From assembly GCA_964606885.1 (NCBI GenBank), contig CAZSHB010000001.1, positions 61,569-125,568 of the forward strand: a stretch of 64,000 nt of DNA, given 5' to 3'. The stretch comes from an uncultured Pseudomonadota bacterium. GTDB lineage: Bacteria > Babelota > Babeliae > Babelales > CAIQNR01. Below the pieces are notes generated by a model that saw only the letters and a list, made by a program, of their open reading frames with translations, searched no databases and was not told where the DNA came from. Of this stretch, positions 7,119 through 62,517 are shown one piece after another. The stretch's first letter is position 1; every line of letters starts with the position of its first letter. Both the position numbers and the translations under genes were made by a program.

Positions 7119-7233
7119 AGAATCATCACTTTTACATTAAAGATACTGTATGAATACCAAACAATTTTTATCTATCGATTTTTTATCAACTCTTTTTAAC
7201 TCTACGTTGCCAGCACTTTTTTTAAAAGATATT
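6955..7233. repeat. Segmental duplication copy A (cca 5' end + divergent promoter + 5' end of LRR gene)
   Basis: Aligns by eye over about 280 bp, roughly four-fifths identical, with 9081-9356. Shared blocks include gcaacaatgcatc, acacgtgcatt, gtgtaaagcatcaactata, gtactaactgagcaacttttgta and atactgtatgaataccaaaca. Confidence 0.85.
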
Positions 7234-8076
7234 CCATTCTTGAGCTATACAACATTAAAATGTGTGCCTCTTATACTTCTCTTTGTGTCTCATTCTTATC
7301 TGTATAGCTCAGATAAAAAACATATAAGCAAACAAGCAAGAAAATCTTTACGTACACTTCAGTTAAGTAAACTTCAAGCAATTCAATCGCAACAAAAAAA
7401 AGGTGAATCAACTCTTGAATGCATCCAGAAAGAACCAGAACATCCAGTCCATCATAAAAATGATACAGCCCAACTCACAGATAAACTGGCTACTGATGAC
7501 ATATTTACACGCAAGAATAAACGGGATTTTTTTGTAGTTCAGAACAAAGATGGAAGCTTTTCTACTATTAGCGCATTAACAGTGCTTATTCTATCGCATA
7601 ACAAATTAACATCATTCCCCAAAGAAAGTTTTTCTCATCTTTCATATTTAAAAGAGCTTGATTTATCAGACAACCAGCTCACTACACTGCCTGATATGTG
7701 TAAAGCAGATTTACCCAATCTAAAAACCCTACATTTATCCAGAAATAATTTAACATCTGAAACAGTAAATCAATTTCCTGTACTTCCACGTTTAAAAAAC
7801 CTTTACTTAGACAATAATCAAATAACAGAATTTCCTAATGTATCAGCTGAACCACTAATGCACATTCGTTATATTGATTTAAGTGATAATCAAATTACCA
7901 AGATAGATTACACTAAGATACTAGCGTATAAAAGACCTCTAGAAACTACGATATTAAATATGGAAAACAATCCTGTACAGGACACGAATAATCCTACTCG
8001 TTTAGGTATTATTTTTAAAGATGAAGATCGTTATCGATATAGAGGTAAAATACCCAATGAATGCACTTTACTTTAA
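7150..8076 (+). CDS. Leucine-rich-repeat protein with C-terminal CaaX box (CTLL)
   Basis: LRR units LxxLxLxxNxL (LKELDLSDNQLTTLPD, LKTLHLSRNNLTS, LKNLYLDNNQITEFPN, IRYIDLSDNQITKI). The last four residues are C-T-L-L then stop (TGC at 8062-8064). Confidence 0.8.
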   Translation: MNTKQFLSIDFLSTLFNSTLPALFLKDIPFLSYTTLKCVPLILLFVSHSYLYSSDKKHISKQARKSLRTLQLSKLQAIQSQQKKGESTLECIQKEPEHPVHHKNDTAQLTDKLATDDIFTRKNKRDFFVVQNKDGSFSTISALTVLILSHNKLTSFPKESFSHLSYLKELDLSDNQLTTLPDMCKADLPNLKTLHLSRNNLTSETVNQFPVLPRLKNLYLDNNQITEFPNVSAEPLMHIRYIDLSDNQITKIDYTKILAYKRPLETTILNMENNPVQDTNNPTRLGIIFKDEDRYRYRGKIPNECTLL

Positions 8077-8083
8077 GGACAGT

Positions 8084-9022
8084 ATGTATAATACATTTAT
8101 TTTTATTTTCATTATAGCGACAATGCAATCTTTTTTTTCACATGCATCAGATACAACTGCAGATCGTTATCATACCATCAAGTTTGCTGATGGTTCACAA
8201 AAAGAATATTCCAACGAATCCATTACCGATCTACCTATAATGCAAGCAGCACAAGACGCTTCTGACACTACAAATCACACACTAAATTTGTCCCATTTAC
8301 GCAATCTTAACAAACACTATTTCACTACTCTCTTGTTAGTATTAGAAGCTAAAAAACGAAGCCCTAATCATGCACAGGGTTACTATCTGCATAATGATGG
8401 TCGACGCGTTAGTGATCAAGAAAGCATTGATGCCCTCTATGCTGCGCAATCCATATATAAAAAAGATGATCCTATTCATCAAGAAATAGGAGGTAAATTT
8501 CACATGTTTTTACGACAAATTCACATATCTAATGCCTTTCTACGCGCCCTTCCACCCACTCTTCCTTTTAAAGATGAAGCAAATAATACAATATACACGC
8601 TTAATCTAGAAGGTAATCTGCTCACAACGCTTCCTGATAATGTTTTTAACCATCTAAAAAACTTGAGCACCCTCAATCTATCACGTAATTCTTTAACATC
8701 CGTAACTGCTGCAACTCTGTCTGGTCTTACTGCTTTAAAAGAACTTAATCTCTCATACAACAACCTCTCTCAAGTGCCTGAAGTTGCTCTAACATCATTA
8801 GAAAAGCTTGATGTACGCGGAAATAAAATAAAAAAAGTACGTTATGCTACATTAGCTCTTAAACAATTAGGGCCACAATTAAAACTCTTAGATTTACGAT
8901 CTAATCCCTTAAGTCCCGCTACTCACCTAGCTATGGATGCTATCCCAAAAGATACGTTAGACGTTTATCTAGAAGATGCTGATGTACCACCTAAAAAAGA
9001 TGGCGACTGTGCATTACTTTAA
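8084..9022 (+). CDS. Leucine-rich-repeat protein with C-terminal CaaX box (CALL)
   Basis: ATG at 8084 has an AAGGA SD 4 nt upstream and gives the signal peptide MYNTFIFIFIIATMQSFFSHA. LRRs: LNLEGNLLTTLPDNVFNHLKNLSTLNLSRNSLTS...LKELNLSYNNLSQVP. Ends C-A-L-L then stop (TGT at 9008-9010). The ORF-track start 8021 overlaps the upstream gene. Confidence 0.8.
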   Translation: MYNTFIFIFIIATMQSFFSHASDTTADRYHTIKFADGSQKEYSNESITDLPIMQAAQDASDTTNHTLNLSHLRNLNKHYFTTLLLVLEAKKRSPNHAQGYYLHNDGRRVSDQESIDALYAAQSIYKKDDPIHQEIGGKFHMFLRQIHISNAFLRALPPTLPFKDEANNTIYTLNLEGNLLTTLPDNVFNHLKNLSTLNLSRNSLTSVTAATLSGLTALKELNLSYNNLSQVPEVALTSLEKLDVRGNKIKKVRYATLALKQLGPQLKLLDLRSNPLSPATHLAMDAIPKDTLDVYLEDADVPPKKDGDCALL

Positions 9023-60834: not shown

Positions 60835-60900
60835 ACGCTTCTTTTTAGTAACTACGGTGTGCTATTTTTTTATATCATGTTTATAAAAAAGGAGACCTGT

Positions 60901-61449
60901 ATGAACTATATTCTGGCCGGCATTATTCTGACACACACGTTTACCATGTTTGCCAGTTGCAAAATAGAGTCACACTGTACGTGGCAAAATCTTGACGAAG
61001 GCCAAAGTATCACCGCTCAACAGGCGTTTGGTGGTAAATGGATTTTAGCTGCAACCATCACGTTCAAAAGAAAATCAGCCGATGATATCTACGTAAGCTT
61101 GCTCGATCTTTCCTGGCAAGGCATACCACTTACCAAACTGAATGCAACACTATTCCGTTGCGATCTTGATAAACCATTTGTACCGCTAGAAGAAAATGTG
61201 GTCGCTGACGGCACATGGAGCCAAGATAAGCAGATGCTCAGATTTAGTTTTAAAGAAAAAGAACGGCTGCAGGCAACACACACATTCGGTCTTGTCCTTA
61301 CCGTTCCTTCTGATTTAGAAACCACTATTAAGACAGGGTATTTTAATTTAGTACCAACCAGCCTCCCGCAACCTTTGCAAGCAACTGCTCAGCAACACCC
61401 TTTGCATGTTCAATTTATGCTGCCAACACAAGACACCCTTGTTTCATGA
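60901..61449 (+). CDS. Hypothetical probable lipoprotein
   Basis: ATG at 60901 gives MNYILAGIILTHTFTMFASC (lipobox-like). I recognise no motif. Confidence 0.45.
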   Translation: MNYILAGIILTHTFTMFASCKIESHCTWQNLDEGQSITAQQAFGGKWILAATITFKRKSADDIYVSLLDLSWQGIPLTKLNATLFRCDLDKPFVPLEENVVADGTWSQDKQMLRFSFKEKERLQATHTFGLVLTVPSDLETTIKTGYFNLVPTSLPQPLQATAQQHPLHVQFMLPTQDTLVS

Positions 61450-62517
61450 AGCAAAACTAATTCCATAGCCAATTTTGCACCATTCCTTAAGGTCATATAA
61501 CTCTTGCGCAAACTCATCATCAATTTCACTTAACCGTGCATACGTACCATCATCTTGACGTACAAACGGATCAACCGCACGACACTTAGGACGACTATTA
61601 ATCGTACCTTTACCATAATCAACAACTGTATACTGATTCTTATAATCAGCCGCTCGCGCAAACCAATACTTAATAACCGGGTCTTGCGCATTGCGTACTA
61701 TATCCATAACCTGCGTGTCGCCACCAAAATGCATAATCTCATGTGACAACAACCCTGTTTTAAGAGCATGAGCAACTGCCTGACCAAAGCAGTAGTACAC
61801 AAACATATTTTCGTGCCCGCCCCAGATGTGCTTAGTAAAGTGTAACGGCAACTGTGCAAACTGTTTTGCTTTATCTTGATCGGTAAAAAACCAGAACCCA
61901 TCTTGATAGTCTAAAGCATCAATCACTGCACATGCATCTTCTTTACTTATACGTCCAAACACAATACCGGTGTGTAAGTTATACTCAATACGGTCCGCAC
62001 AAAGATCGGGCAGCGGTTGTTCAAGCGCACGGTAATCTGGATGATCCGGGTCCATCTGCTCAAGCATCAATCCTTGCGCATCAAGCAAAGTTATAAGATC
62101 TTGATAGTGTGATAAAAACCACAAATGAATAGTATCTTGGTACGATTTATCACCGTCCCCTTTACCAAACACAATATCCCCTAAATGTGAGAATACGGTA
62201 TGCGATGTATCATGCAGCAAACCTGCAAGTTGTTCTTTTTTATCTGCGCATGCTTTTGTTTTAAGCAACCACCACACACCAATAGAATGGTTATAGCGGC
62301 TGTAATCGGGCACCATACCTAAATAAAAGGTAGGCCCTGCAACAGCAATATCCTTCATGCGTTGCATAACAGGACTTGCAATCACTTGTTCTATTAATTC
62401 GTCATCACACGCATAGTCACCCCATGCGGTGGACACGATCATCTGCGCTTGTACTGCAGTAACACTGAGCAAAAGTGCTACAACTAAATTCCGATACCAA
62501 TACTTTTTATAATTCAT
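61444..62517 (-). CDS. Exported HD-domain phosphohydrolase (COG1078 / SAMHD1-EF1143-like dNTPase fold)
   Basis: Signal peptide MNYKKYWYRNLVVALLLSVTAVQA. HD motifs RYNHSIGVWWLL and AGLLHDTSHTVFSH, plus the downstream DRIEYNLH. Confidence 0.65.
   Translation of the reverse strand: MNYKKYWYRNLVVALLLSVTAVQAQMIVSTAWGDYACDDELIEQVIASPVMQRMKDIAVAGPTFYLGMVPDYSRYNHSIGVWWLLKTKACADKKEQLAGLLHDTSHTVFSHLGDIVFGKGDGDKSYQDTIHLWFLSHYQDLITLLDAQGLMLEQMDPDHPDYRALEQPLPDLCADRIEYNLHTGIVFGRISKEDACAVIDALDYQDGFWFFTDQDKAKQFAQLPLHFTKHIWGGHENMFVYYCFGQAVAHALKTGLLSHEIMHFGGDTQVMDIVRNAQDPVIKYWFARAADYKNQYTVVDYGKGTINSRPKCRAVDPFVRQDDGTYARLSEIDDEFAQELYDLKEWCKIGYGISFAS

What the first reader, a model, noticed from the sequence alone, without database searches (positions are those of the whole stretch)
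7150..62517. Eukaryote-like proteins in this window nearly all carry classical Sec leaders, implying a two-step route from periplasm to host cytosol
Several proteins start with a short basic N-terminus, a hydrophobic core and an Ala-x-Ala-like end. They are the RING proteins (MNIKLIVLVATVVSSSIYA; MKRIVWLASLLLLTANVGLQA), LRR2 (MYNTFIFIFIIATMQSFFSHA), the ankyrin proteins (MKLLYGFLVMVSVVEGA), the cPLA2-like enzyme (MKKSIHYLGFFALLITLPQTTHPLSA), the CIIL protein, the HD hydrolase and the SOD. RING E3 activity, CaaX prenylation and ANK/LRR scaffolding only make sense in the host cytosol, whereas T3SS and T4SS substrates typically lack Sec leaders. That combination argues for an outer-membrane translocation step (T2SS-like, T5SS, OMV-mediated or something undescribed) that is not encoded in this window.
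Basis: inference. Interest (0 to 1): 0.6.

Follow-up and report, generated by a model that had tools for sequence, protein, structure and literature searches.

The report
Sec-leadered host-targeting proteins of a Dependentiae bacterium
This window comes from a Dependentiae (TM6) intracellular parasite whose RING, LRR, ankyrin and phospholipase proteins really do start with export signal peptides, a trait already reported for this phylum, with the new detail that three of them also end in a host-prenylation (CaaX) motif.

Summary
RING1, RING2, LRR2, ANK1, ANK2, the PLA2_B enzyme, the CIIL protein, the HD protein and the SOD all start with a basic n-region (LRR2 has none), a hydrophobic core and a small-x-small end. 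The leaders persist in every orthologue and in 28 of 34 PLA2 homologues. A cytoplasmic control gave 1 of 120.

The leaders are not specific to eukaryote-like proteins. About 29 of 56 genes in the window carry one.

Named Lon homologues and synteny place the window in Dependentiae (Babeliales). The same inference is already published for that phylum. In Babela, 79 of 126 ankyrin proteins have signal peptides and type II secretion is the only system detected. In Chromulinavorax, 44% of CDS and 78% of ankyrins have signal peptides, and outer-membrane vesicles were seen. The two-step route is therefore the best reading, but it is neither new nor proven.

New details:
- Exactly three genes have Cys at -4, and all three read C-a-a-L and carry leaders (P about 2e-7).
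- There is a small SP-RING family whose tandem copy number varies between relatives.
- LRR1 heads a 313-bp duplication that copied a neighbour's promoter and signal-peptide codons.

Caveat: SOD, HD and possibly the ANK proteins may simply be periplasmic.

The parts
7150..8076 (+). LRR1, an LRR protein ending CTLL (CaaX). Its first 34 codons are a diverged copy of the hyp268 signal peptide. A second hydrophobic segment (CVPLILLFVSHS) follows, with a possible native TTG start at 7240.
   Evidence: Pfam LRR_4/LRR_8; leader analysis; duplication; CaaX
8084..9022 (+). LRR2, an LRR protein with leader MYNTFIFIFIIATMQSFFSHA|SD, ending CALL (CaaX). Alternative upstream starts at 8021 and 8057 keep the same hydrophobic core.
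   Evidence: Pfam LRR_8
6940..7252 (.). Copy 1 of a 313-bp direct duplication: the 5' end of the CCA/polyA-polymerase gene, the divergent intergenic region, and the signal-peptide codons.
   Evidence: the repeat finder D1/D2 at 84% and 78% identity; alignment A1
9065..9376 (.). Copy 2 of the duplication. It holds a CCA 5' pseudo-fragment plus the genuine promoter region and signal-peptide codons of hyp268.
   Evidence: in relatives L082 and L085, CCA and the hyp268 orthologue are directly adjacent
9274..10080 (+). hyp268, a DUF4097/LiaG-like protein with leader MNTKQFLAIGFLLTAVNCTLSA|H.
10090..10620 (+). hyp176, a lineage-specific protein with a leader.
10638..11309 (-). RING1: leader MNIKLIVLVATVVSSSIYA|AD, a C3HC4 RING and a helical C-terminal module. 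It is absent from the close relative L081.
   Evidence: Pfam zf-C3HC4; AF2 model; Foldseek hits to TRIM21/TRAF6 RINGs
11306..12376 (-). RING2: leader MKRIVWLASLLLLTANVGLQA|AE, a C3HC4 RING and two copies of the C-terminal module.
   Evidence: Pfam; 92%-identical orthologue P0001 whose leader has diverged but is retained; paralogy with RING1
12570..13754 (+). hyp186 and hyp204, two fast-evolving leader-bearing island proteins (about 71% identity to L081, where housekeeping genes are 97-99%).
14261..16015 (+). DsbD, which carries reducing power into the periplasm. It lies at the edge of the RING island in all relatives and serves as a positive control for a Sec leader.
   Evidence: Pfam DsbD_TM + thioredoxin; synteny
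18550..20751 (+). PLA2_B (cPLA2/lysophospholipase-like) enzyme with leader MKKSIHYLGFFALLITLPQTTHPLSA.
   Evidence: Pfam PF01735; 28 of 34 homologues carry leaders, including two labelled Candidatus Dependentiae
35619..35894 (-). A 91-aa protein with leader MKKMLIITALVLTMQVCA|SS, ending CIIL (CaaX).
   Evidence: no Pfam hit
38974..39579 (-). ANK1, an ankyrin-repeat protein with leader MKLLYGFLVMVSVVEG|A.
   Evidence: Pfam Ank_2
39629..40441 (-). ANK2, an ankyrin-repeat protein and tandem paralogue of ANK1. Its leader core is IFQFFLLVFMIPFALQGA|C.
   Evidence: Pfam Ank_2
45178..45924 (-). Fe/Mn superoxide dismutase with a 40-aa N-terminal extension. The leader is MKKFVLLGISSILVGVGAAVA|ITK, which could be a signal peptide or a signal anchor. 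It is an ordinary bacterial enzyme and is probably periplasmic.
   Evidence: Pfam; NCBIfam places the catalytic domain from residue 43
61444..62517 (-). HD-domain protein (weak match) with leader MNYKKYWYRNLVVALLLSVTAVQA|Q.
   Evidence: Pfam HD at E = 9e-4, below the curated cutoff
2375..5660 (-). TolB-TolA-TolR-TolQ (Tol-Pal). This is the only envelope-spanning system in the window. TolB is a positive control for a Sec leader.
   Evidence: NCBIfam TolB; Pfam of orthologues
34204..37642 (+). Two TLC ATP/ADP translocase paralogues flanking the CIIL gene. They are a hallmark of an energy-parasitic lifestyle.
   Evidence: Pfam PF03219

Best explanation
The window belongs to a Dependentiae (TM6, order Babeliales) obligate intracellular parasite of protists. 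Roughly half of its genes, essentially the whole lineage-specific accessory set, encode proteins with classical Sec/SPase-I leaders.

Shown here: the leaders are real, they are conserved as a property across orthologues and families, and they sit on RING, LRR, ANK and PLA2_B proteins. Three of these proteins also end in a C-a-a-L geranylgeranylation-type CaaX box.

Inferred: these proteins are exported unfolded through SecYEG and their leader is cleaved. A subset (at least the RING and LRR-CaaX proteins) then crosses the outer membrane into the host cytoplasm. The most probable route is the type II secretion system, which the literature reports as conserved in this phylum and as the only secretion system found in Babela. 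Outer-membrane vesicles are a parallel or alternative route. Once in the host, the RING proteins would act as E3 mimics, and the CaaX proteins would be lipidated by host GGTase-I and anchored to host membranes.

Other leader-bearing proteins (TolB, CtpA, DsbD, and probably SOD, HD and the lipoproteins) stay in the envelope.

Because the address label is a simple N-terminal cassette, new effectors can become export-competent by fusing to a resident leader. The LRR1 locus illustrates this.
For: Taxon:
- Named best Lon homologues are Candidatus Babeliales, Babeliaceae and Dependentiae at 67-72% identity.
- The window has two TLC translocases.
- Relatives L081, L082, L085 and L001 share the gene backbone.

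Leaders:
- Heuristic results with controls.
- Conservation in orthologues, in the PLA2 family and in the SP-RING family.

Host-cytosol destination:
- 3 of 56 genes have Cys at -4, and all three read C-[AVILT]-[AVILT]-L, P about 2e-7.
- 0 of 1858 ORFs in unrelated loci end this way.
- The LRR protein of relative L082 has a leader and ends CCIS.
- The RING has the complete C3HC4 pattern and superposes on TRIM21 and TRAF6 RINGs.

Route (from the literature):
- PMC4378268: T2SS is the only system detected in Babela, and 79 of 126 ANK proteins have a signal peptide.
- PMC4776705: T2SS genes and two gspD copies belong to the TM6 core.
- PMC6561590: 44% of CDS and 78% of ANK proteins have a signal peptide, and OMVs were observed.

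There are no twin-arginine motifs, so the route is Sec rather than Tat.
Against: - There is no experimental or in-window evidence of secretion beyond the periplasm.
- I could not inspect the rest of this genome for T2SS genes.
- T2SS substrates fold in the periplasm. That is awkward for a zinc-binding RING with seven cysteines, and for the apparent scale (about 40-50% of the proteome).
- A Sec-leadered ankyrin protein (Rickettsia RARP-1) proved to be periplasmic.
- My leader calls come from a home-made heuristic, not SignalP.
- LRR2 lacks a basic n-region, and several leaders could be signal anchors.
- Taxon labels on some of the nearest MAG proteins read 'Proteobacteria'.
Confidence: 0.55

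Rival explanations
1. The leader-bearing eukaryote-like proteins are periplasmic or envelope residents. They act on the bacterium's own envelope or on imported host material and never reach the host cytosol.
For: Rickettsia RARP-1, an ankyrin protein with a Sec leader, is periplasmic. TolB, CtpA, DsbD and SOD in this window use the same kind of leader. A signal peptide alone does not distinguish periplasmic from secreted proteins.
Against: RING E3 domains need host E2~ubiquitin. C-a-a-L boxes are used only by eukaryotic cytosolic prenyltransferases, and they are strongly enriched here and confined to leader-bearing proteins. The island proteins evolve fast and vary in copy number between relatives, as host-interaction genes typically do.
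Confidence: 0.15
2. Sec export is followed by release in outer-membrane vesicles or by lysis of part of the bacterial population, not by a dedicated T2SS.
For: OMV-like blebs were seen for Chromulinavorax in food vacuoles (PMC6561590). The very large fraction of leader-bearing proteins (about half of the genes) is easier to reconcile with bulk release of periplasmic content. A Tol-Pal system, which governs vesiculation, is present.
Against: T2SS genes are reported as core to the phylum. OMV cargo still has to cross the vesicle membrane to reach host E2s or prenyltransferases.
Confidence: 0.2
3. A so far undescribed outer-membrane translocation system, specific to Dependentiae, moves Sec-exported effectors into the host.
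For: The scale and diversity of leader-bearing proteins, and the presence of cysteine-rich zinc fingers among them, are atypical for T2SS substrates. No experimental work on Dependentiae secretion was found in the library.
Against: There is no positive evidence. Known systems (T2SS, OMVs) are sufficient. No candidate machinery lies in the window or in the five related loci.
Confidence: 0.07
4. The hydrophobic N-termini are artefacts of start-codon choice. Alternatively, they are membrane-insertion segments of effectors delivered by a one-step system (T3SS, T4SS or T1SS) encoded elsewhere.
For: Several ORFs have alternative starts (LRR1, LRR2, ANK2, SOD, RING2). Chlamydial Inc proteins show that hydrophobic segments can coexist with T3SS delivery (my own knowledge).
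Against: All alternative starts lie upstream of the hydrophobic core. The leaders are conserved in orthologues and families, while cytoplasmic controls give 1 of 120. The segments are single, N-terminal, 10-18 residues long and followed by small-x-small sites, not bilobed Inc-type domains. No T3SS or T4SS was found in Babela.
Confidence: 0.03

Closest known systems
Predicted secretomes of cultured Dependentiae: Babela massiliensis (Pagnier 2015, PMC4378268) and Chromulinavorax destructans (Deeg 2019, PMC6561590)
   Same: Same phylum. A very high share of CDS carry signal peptides. Most ankyrin proteins carry them, and LRR, RING and ubiquitin-system proteins are present. Effector genes sit in islands. 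The published inference is Sec export followed by T2SS (Babela) or OMVs (Chromulinavorax) into the host cytoplasm. ATP/ADP translocases are present.
   Different: Those papers do not report CaaX motifs on leader-bearing proteins; no paper in the searched library mentions both Dependentiae and CaaX. The Babela RING protein was not described as secreted. The SP-RING family found here has only about nine 50%-identity representatives in 1.84 billion proteins. The GC content is higher here (about 40%).
Legionella pneumophila CaaX effectors (AnkB, Pel proteins; PMC2916131, PMC13081727)
   Same: Bacterial proteins with eukaryote-like domains (ANK, F-box, LRR) and a C-terminal CaaX box, lipidated by host prenyltransferases to anchor them on host membranes.
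   Different: The Legionella proteins are one-step Dot/Icm T4SS substrates without Sec leaders. The proteins here carry Sec leaders, and the phylum is not known to have a T4SS.
Legionella type II secretion substrates that reach the host cytosol (reviewed in PMC7325957)
   Same: A two-step route: a Sec leader followed by T2SS. Some substrates, including lipolytic enzymes, end up outside the vacuole in the host cytoplasm.
   Different: In Legionella these are mostly degradative enzymes and number a few dozen. Here the candidates include RING, LRR and ANK scaffolds and a far larger share of the proteome.
Rickettsia RARP-1 (bioRxiv 10.1101/2022.02.23.481736)
   Same: An ankyrin-repeat protein of an obligate intracellular bacterium with an N-terminal Sec signal peptide.
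   Different: RARP-1 was shown to stay in the periplasm. It has no CaaX box or RING domain. It is a caution, not a homologue.

Membership tests
Sec-type (SPase I) signal peptide | Short n-region with net positive charge | tested here: met
   RING1, RING2, PLA2, CIIL, ANK1, ANK2, HD and SOD all have at least one K/R before the core. LRR2 (MYNT...) has none.
Sec-type (SPase I) signal peptide | Uncharged hydrophobic h-region of about 7-18 residues close to the N-terminus | tested here: met
   Cores of 10-18 residues with mean Kyte-Doolittle hydropathy of at least 1.9. Controls: 1 of 19 cytoplasmic proteins in the window and 1 of 120 Lon homologues.
Sec-type (SPase I) signal peptide | c-region with small residues at -1 and -3, and no twin-arginine motif | tested here: met
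   The endings IYA|A, LQA|A, SHA|S, VCA|S, VQA|Q and AVA|I recur, and VQA recurs in the RING family. No RR motif is present.
Sec-type (SPase I) signal peptide | Positive call by a trained predictor (SignalP, DeepTMHMM), and experimental cleavage | not testable with these tools
   No such predictor is available. Cleavage would need N-terminomics.
Type II secretion substrate | Sec or Tat leader for the first step | tested here: met
   See the rows above.
Type II secretion substrate | A T2SS (GspD/E/F/G...) encoded in the same genome | not testable with these tools
   None is in the window or in five related loci. The literature reports T2SS as core to the phylum.
Type II secretion substrate | T2SS-dependent appearance outside the cell | not testable with these tools
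   Experimental.
CaaX-box prenylation substrate (Legionella AnkB type) | Cys at -4, aliphatic residues at -3 and -2, and a specifying residue at -1 | tested here: met
   The endings are CTLL, CALL and CIIL. These are the only three genes with Cys at -4. P is about 2e-7, and 0 of 1858 control ORFs end this way. The L082 LRR orthologue-position gene ends CCIS.
CaaX-box prenylation substrate (Legionella AnkB type) | Delivery by a one-step T4SS, with no Sec leader | tested here: not met
   All three proteins carry N-terminal leaders. They may work like the Legionella CaaX effectors, but they are not of the same delivery class.
CaaX-box prenylation substrate (Legionella AnkB type) | Prenylation by host FTase or GGTase-I | not testable with these tools
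   Experimental.
RING-type E3 ubiquitin ligase | Complete C3HC4 cross-brace ligand pattern and a Pfam match above the cutoff | tested here: met
   zf-C3HC4 scores 36.9 and 34.2 bits against a cutoff of 21. The ligand columns are invariant in the family alignment.
RING-type E3 ubiquitin ligase | RING fold | tested here: met
   The AF2 model has RING pLDDT of 63-77. Foldseek matches TRIM21, TRAF6 and TRIM30 RINGs at rmsd 1.8-2.5 A over 47-51 residues with 32-41% identity and probability 0.97-1.0, although whole-query E-values are only 0.01-0.3.
RING-type E3 ubiquitin ligase | E2 binding and ubiquitin-transfer activity | not testable with these tools
   Experimental.
Type V (autotransporter) secretion | C-terminal beta-barrel translocator domain | tested here: not met
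   No autotransporter, TPS or intimin domain was found in any candidate. The proteins are 91-733 aa, with RING, LRR, ANK or helical C-termini.
Phylum Dependentiae (TM6), order Babeliales | Closest named homologues of conserved proteins belong to the phylum | tested here: met
   For Lon: Candidatus Babeliales 72%, Babeliaceae 68%, Dependentiae 67%. Two MAG labels read 'Proteobacteria' and 'Alteromonas' at 73% and are probably mislabelled. No 16S rRNA gene lies in the window.
Phylum Dependentiae (TM6), order Babeliales | ATP/ADP translocases, many ANK/LRR proteins and a very high fraction of signal peptides | tested here: met
   Two TLC genes. About 29 of 56 genes have leaders, compared with 44% reported for Chromulinavorax.

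The most novel reading that the evidence does not exclude
In Dependentiae the plain Sec signal peptide may be the universal, modular address label for host-cytosolic effectors, including cysteine-rich RING E3 mimics and prenylatable LRR proteins. On this reading the second step across the outer membrane is handled by a T2SS with unprecedented substrate breadth or by an undescribed translocon. 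Newly acquired host-like genes would become effectors simply by capturing a resident promoter-plus-leader cassette, as the 313-bp duplication at LRR1 suggests.
Probability: 0.15. Interest if true: 0.65.

Novelty: new member of a known kind. Interest (0 to 1): 0.35.

Why it matters
Dependentiae are widespread parasites of protists, and their host-manipulation machinery has never been tested experimentally. A leader and a CaaX box on the same protein give a clean, testable marker for proteins that must pass Sec, the outer membrane and then meet host cytosolic enzymes. That makes the LRR-CaaX and CIIL proteins good reporters for working out the second secretion step. The general pattern itself (signal peptides on eukaryote-like proteins, with T2SS as the likely exit) is already in the literature, so the finding mainly extends a known picture to RING and CaaX proteins.

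Tried and rejected
- Exact-sequence look-ups of window proteins (RING1, and Lon as P0036) found no contig on record, so the rest of the genome could not be searched for secretion systems.
- The GyrB genome scan returned only distant or mislabelled genomes, at most 58% identity. It was useful only for L001 synteny.
- RING2 has a single homologue in the 5.8-billion word-indexed search. The profile search was needed to find the family.
- Metagenome scans for the CIIL protein and for LRR2 found no relatives, so CaaX conservation could be checked only in L082.
- The promoter and terminator scan of the island was no better than shuffled sequence.
- Foldseek gave no match for the helical C-terminal module of the RING family.
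- T5SS was rejected because there is no barrel domain.
- Tat was rejected because there is no RR motif.
- The start-codon artefact was rejected because the leaders are conserved.
- Lipoprotein status was considered for hyp94 and the alpha/beta hydrolase, where it is likely (the L082 orthologue has LSGC), and for ANK2, where the site is non-canonical and was left open.

Full report
**What is in the window.** The 64-kb window is about 40% GC and carries three tRNAs. It has a backbone of housekeeping genes: FtsH, TolBARQ, a CCA/polyA polymerase, LysS, RecJ, Cmk, PyrG, Lon, RpsB, DnaX, Der, GlmS, RpsI, TadA, GyrB and TilS. This backbone is interrupted by clusters of lineage-specific genes.
- two LRR proteins (7150-8076+, 8084-9022+);
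- two C3HC4 RING proteins (10638-11309-, 11306-12376-);
- two ankyrin proteins (38974-39579-, 39629-40441-);
- a PLA2_B (cPLA2/lysophospholipase-type) enzyme (18550-20751+);
- an Fe/Mn SOD and a weak HD match;
- two TLC ATP/ADP translocases.

**Are the leaders real?** No trained signal-peptide predictor was available, so I wrote an n/h/c-region test. It calls leaders in LRR2, RING1, RING2, PLA2, ANK1, ANK2, the CIIL protein, HD and SOD. It also calls them in TolB, CtpA and DsbD, which are bona fide periplasmic proteins and serve as internal positive controls. It calls a leader in 1 of 19 cytoplasmic housekeeping proteins of the window (PyrG, via its glycine-rich loop) and in 1 of 120 Lon homologues.

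The stronger argument is comparative.
- In four related contigs (L081, L082, L085, L084), the orthologues and island neighbours all keep a leader, even where its sequence has changed completely.
- 28 of 34 homologues of the PLA2 enzyme start with a leader. The six exceptions are fragments, one protein with a long N-terminal extension, and two barnacle cPLA2s.
- Every member of the RING family with an intact N-terminus has one, typically ending VQA.
- None has a twin-arginine motif.

LRR2 lacks a basic n-region. SOD and APH1 may have signal anchors. LRR1 is a special case, described below.

**The leaders are not specific to eukaryote-like proteins.** About 29 of 56 genes have one. That is essentially every gene that is neither cytoplasmic housekeeping nor a multi-pass membrane protein. 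The one clear exception is the poly-Ser protein at 62543-63925-. Against that base rate, 6-7 of 7 eukaryote-like proteins is not a significant enrichment (P about 0.08).

**Which organism?**
- GyrB finds nothing closer than 58% identity among species representatives. The best locus, L001, shares the GlmS-RpsI-TadA-GyrB order and is followed by small leader-bearing proteins.
- For Lon, the best named homologues are Candidatus Babeliales (72%), Babeliaceae (68%) and Dependentiae (67%). Two MAG proteins labelled 'Proteobacteria' and 'Alteromonas' score 73% and look mislabelled.
- Two distant PLA2 homologues are also labelled Candidatus Dependentiae.
- Together with the TLC translocases and the leader-rich proteome, this places the window in Dependentiae (TM6), order Babeliales. 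My confidence is about 0.85. There is no 16S rRNA gene in the window.

**What is already known for that phylum.**
- Pagnier et al. [quoted passage not shown] - Yeoh et al. 2016 (PMC4776705) found T2SS components and two gspD copies in all seven TM6 genomes they studied.
- Deeg et al. 2019 (PMC6561590) found signal peptides on 44% of all CDS and 78% of ankyrin proteins of Chromulinavorax. They proposed Sec export and saw outer-membrane vesicles.

I found no experimental test of it.

**What this window adds.**

*1. CaaX boxes on leader-bearing proteins.* Exactly three of the 56 genes have Cys at position -4, and all three read C-aliphatic-aliphatic-Leu: LRR1 CTLL, LRR2 CALL and the 91-aa protein CIIL. 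The expectation is 0.011 per 56 genes, so P is about 2e-7. None of 1858 ORFs of at least 150 aa in 79 unrelated bacterial loci ends this way. All three carry N-terminal leaders. The LRR protein in the same island of relative L082 has a leader and ends CCIS. CaaX prenylation is a eukaryotic cytosolic reaction; this is established knowledge, exploited for example by Legionella AnkB (PMC2916131). The motif is therefore internal evidence that these Sec-exported proteins end up in the host cytosol. No paper in the searched library mentions both Dependentiae and CaaX.

*2. A small SP-RING family.*
- A profile search of 1.84 billion representatives finds only nine proteins at E < 1e-10.
- All share the layout: leader, RING, then a conserved helical module (IVAP.YR...EY.AL...PEW.D..WL).
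- An AlphaFold model of RING1 (mean pLDDT 71) shows a detached, low-confidence leader helix, a RING, and a confident helical C-domain.
- The RING superposes on the TRIM21, TRAF6 and TRIM30 RINGs at about 2 A with 32-41% identity. The C-domain has no PDB match.
- Copy number in the same island, between the CCA gene and DsbD, is 0 in L082, 1 in L081, 2 in the window and 3 in L085.
- Island proteins diverge much faster than the backbone. Against L081 they are 71-91% identical, where housekeeping genes are 97-99%.

*3. A leader captured by duplication.*
- A 313-bp segment (6940-7252) is repeated at 9065-9376 with 78-84% identity.
- It contains the 5' end of the CCA gene, the divergent intergenic region, and the first 34 codons of hyp268, which are its signal peptide.
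- In L082 and L085 the CCA gene and the hyp268 orthologue are directly adjacent. The LRR1-LRR2 pair is therefore an insertion specific to this lineage.
- LRR1 now reads through a copy of hyp268's promoter and leader. Its own hydrophobic segment follows, with a possible native TTG start at 7240.
- Whichever start is used, LRR1 has a leader.
- The locus shows how easily a leader cassette can be attached to a new gene.

**Mechanism.**
- Shown: Sec-type leaders; RING, LRR, ANK and PLA2_B domains; CaaX boxes; no secretion machinery in the window other than Tol-Pal and a TonB-like protein.
- Inferred: SecYEG export with leader cleavage. A second step across the outer membrane follows for at least the RING and CaaX proteins, most probably through the phylum's T2SS and/or OMVs. 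Cultured Dependentiae replicate in the host cytoplasm, so that step would deliver the proteins there directly. Host E2 engagement and host geranylgeranylation would then follow.
- Open problems: T2SS substrates fold in the periplasm, which is awkward for a zinc finger with seven cysteines. DsbD, which imports reducing power into the periplasm, flanks the RING island in all relatives; this is only suggestive. The sheer fraction of leader-bearing proteins is also far beyond known T2SS secretomes.

**Rival readings.**
- Periplasmic residence has a precedent in Rickettsia RARP-1, a Sec-leadered ankyrin protein that is periplasmic. It is plausible for SOD, HD and perhaps the ANK proteins, but it fits poorly with the RING and CaaX proteins.
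- OMV- or lysis-mediated release is compatible with everything seen and does not exclude T2SS.
- T5SS is excluded because no barrel domain was found.
- Tat is excluded because there is no RR motif.
- A start-codon artefact is excluded because the leaders are conserved.
- A one-step T3SS or T4SS is unlikely given the leaders and the phylum's gene content, but this genome could not be checked.

**Verdict.** It also lumps in ordinary periplasmic enzymes, and it overstates the claim that ANK and LRR proteins must act in the host. The value added is threefold: the co-occurrence of leader and CaaX box, the SP-RING family, and the leader-capture event. I rate novelty as a new member of a known kind and interest as about 0.35.

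Noticed in passing
window 6940-7252 and 9065-9376: A 313-bp direct duplication (78-84% identity). It spans the 5' end of the CCA/polyA-polymerase gene, the divergent intergenic region and the 34 signal-peptide codons of hyp268. It brackets the LRR1-LRR2 pair, which is absent at this position in relatives L082 and L085. LRR1 is therefore a chimera headed by a captured promoter and leader, and a CCA 5' pseudo-fragment lies at 9065-9242.
   Followed up: yes
window 10638-12376; L085 5665-7823; L081 9571-10641: A lineage-restricted SP-RING family, with about nine 50%-identity representatives in 1.84 billion proteins. Its tandem copy number is 0, 1, 2 or 3 in the same island of four relatives. Its conserved helical C-terminal module has no PDB match and is duplicated within RING2.
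   Followed up: partly
window 12570-13130 (hyp186) vs L081 8813-9376: The leader is 22/22 identical between the two strains, but the mature part is only 67% identical, while flanking housekeeping genes are 97-99% identical. This suggests either strong diversifying selection or recombination confined to the mature region.
   Followed up: no
window 14261-16015: DsbD, the periplasmic reductant importer, sits at the edge of the RING/effector island in the window and in L081, L082 and L085. It may matter for keeping cysteine-rich exported proteins reduced.
   Followed up: no
window 16110-16721 (-): A leader-bearing protein made largely of Gly/His/Ser/Asn runs (GGGGGGHGGGYHGGG...). It is conserved in position next to LysS in three relatives but highly variable in length (86-219 aa).
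   Followed up: no
window 23830-26817 (-): A 995-aa Thr/Ser/Asn/Gly-rich protein with an N-terminal hydrophobic leader and no Pfam or NCBIfam hit. It is absent at this position in L082, where two small lipoprotein paralogues lie instead. It could be a surface or adhesin-type protein.
   Followed up: no
window 62543-63925 (-): A 460-aa lineage-specific protein with long poly-Ser tracts and no convincing leader. It is the one clear accessory protein in the window that lacks a leader.
   Followed up: no
window 34204-37642: Two divergent TLC ATP/ADP translocase paralogues (26% identity) flank the small CIIL gene.
   Followed up: no
window 48149-49035 (-) and 57866-58502 (+): hyp149 and hyp117 are tandem paralogues (38% identity). 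They are small, leader-bearing, partly Cys-rich proteins without database matches. hyp100 and hyp102 are an adjacent pair of similar small leader-bearing proteins, but no paralogy between them was detected. Together with LRR1/LRR2, RING1/RING2 and ANK1/ANK2, these point to frequent local duplication of exported proteins.
   Followed up: partly
P0015/P0056 (41-kb contig) and P0011/P0069 (39.7-kb contig): Public MAG contigs labelled 'Alteromonas naphthalenivorans' and 'Proteobacteria bacterium' carry Lon proteins 73% identical to the window's, and leader-bearing PLA2_B homologues. They are probably mislabelled Dependentiae.
   Followed up: no
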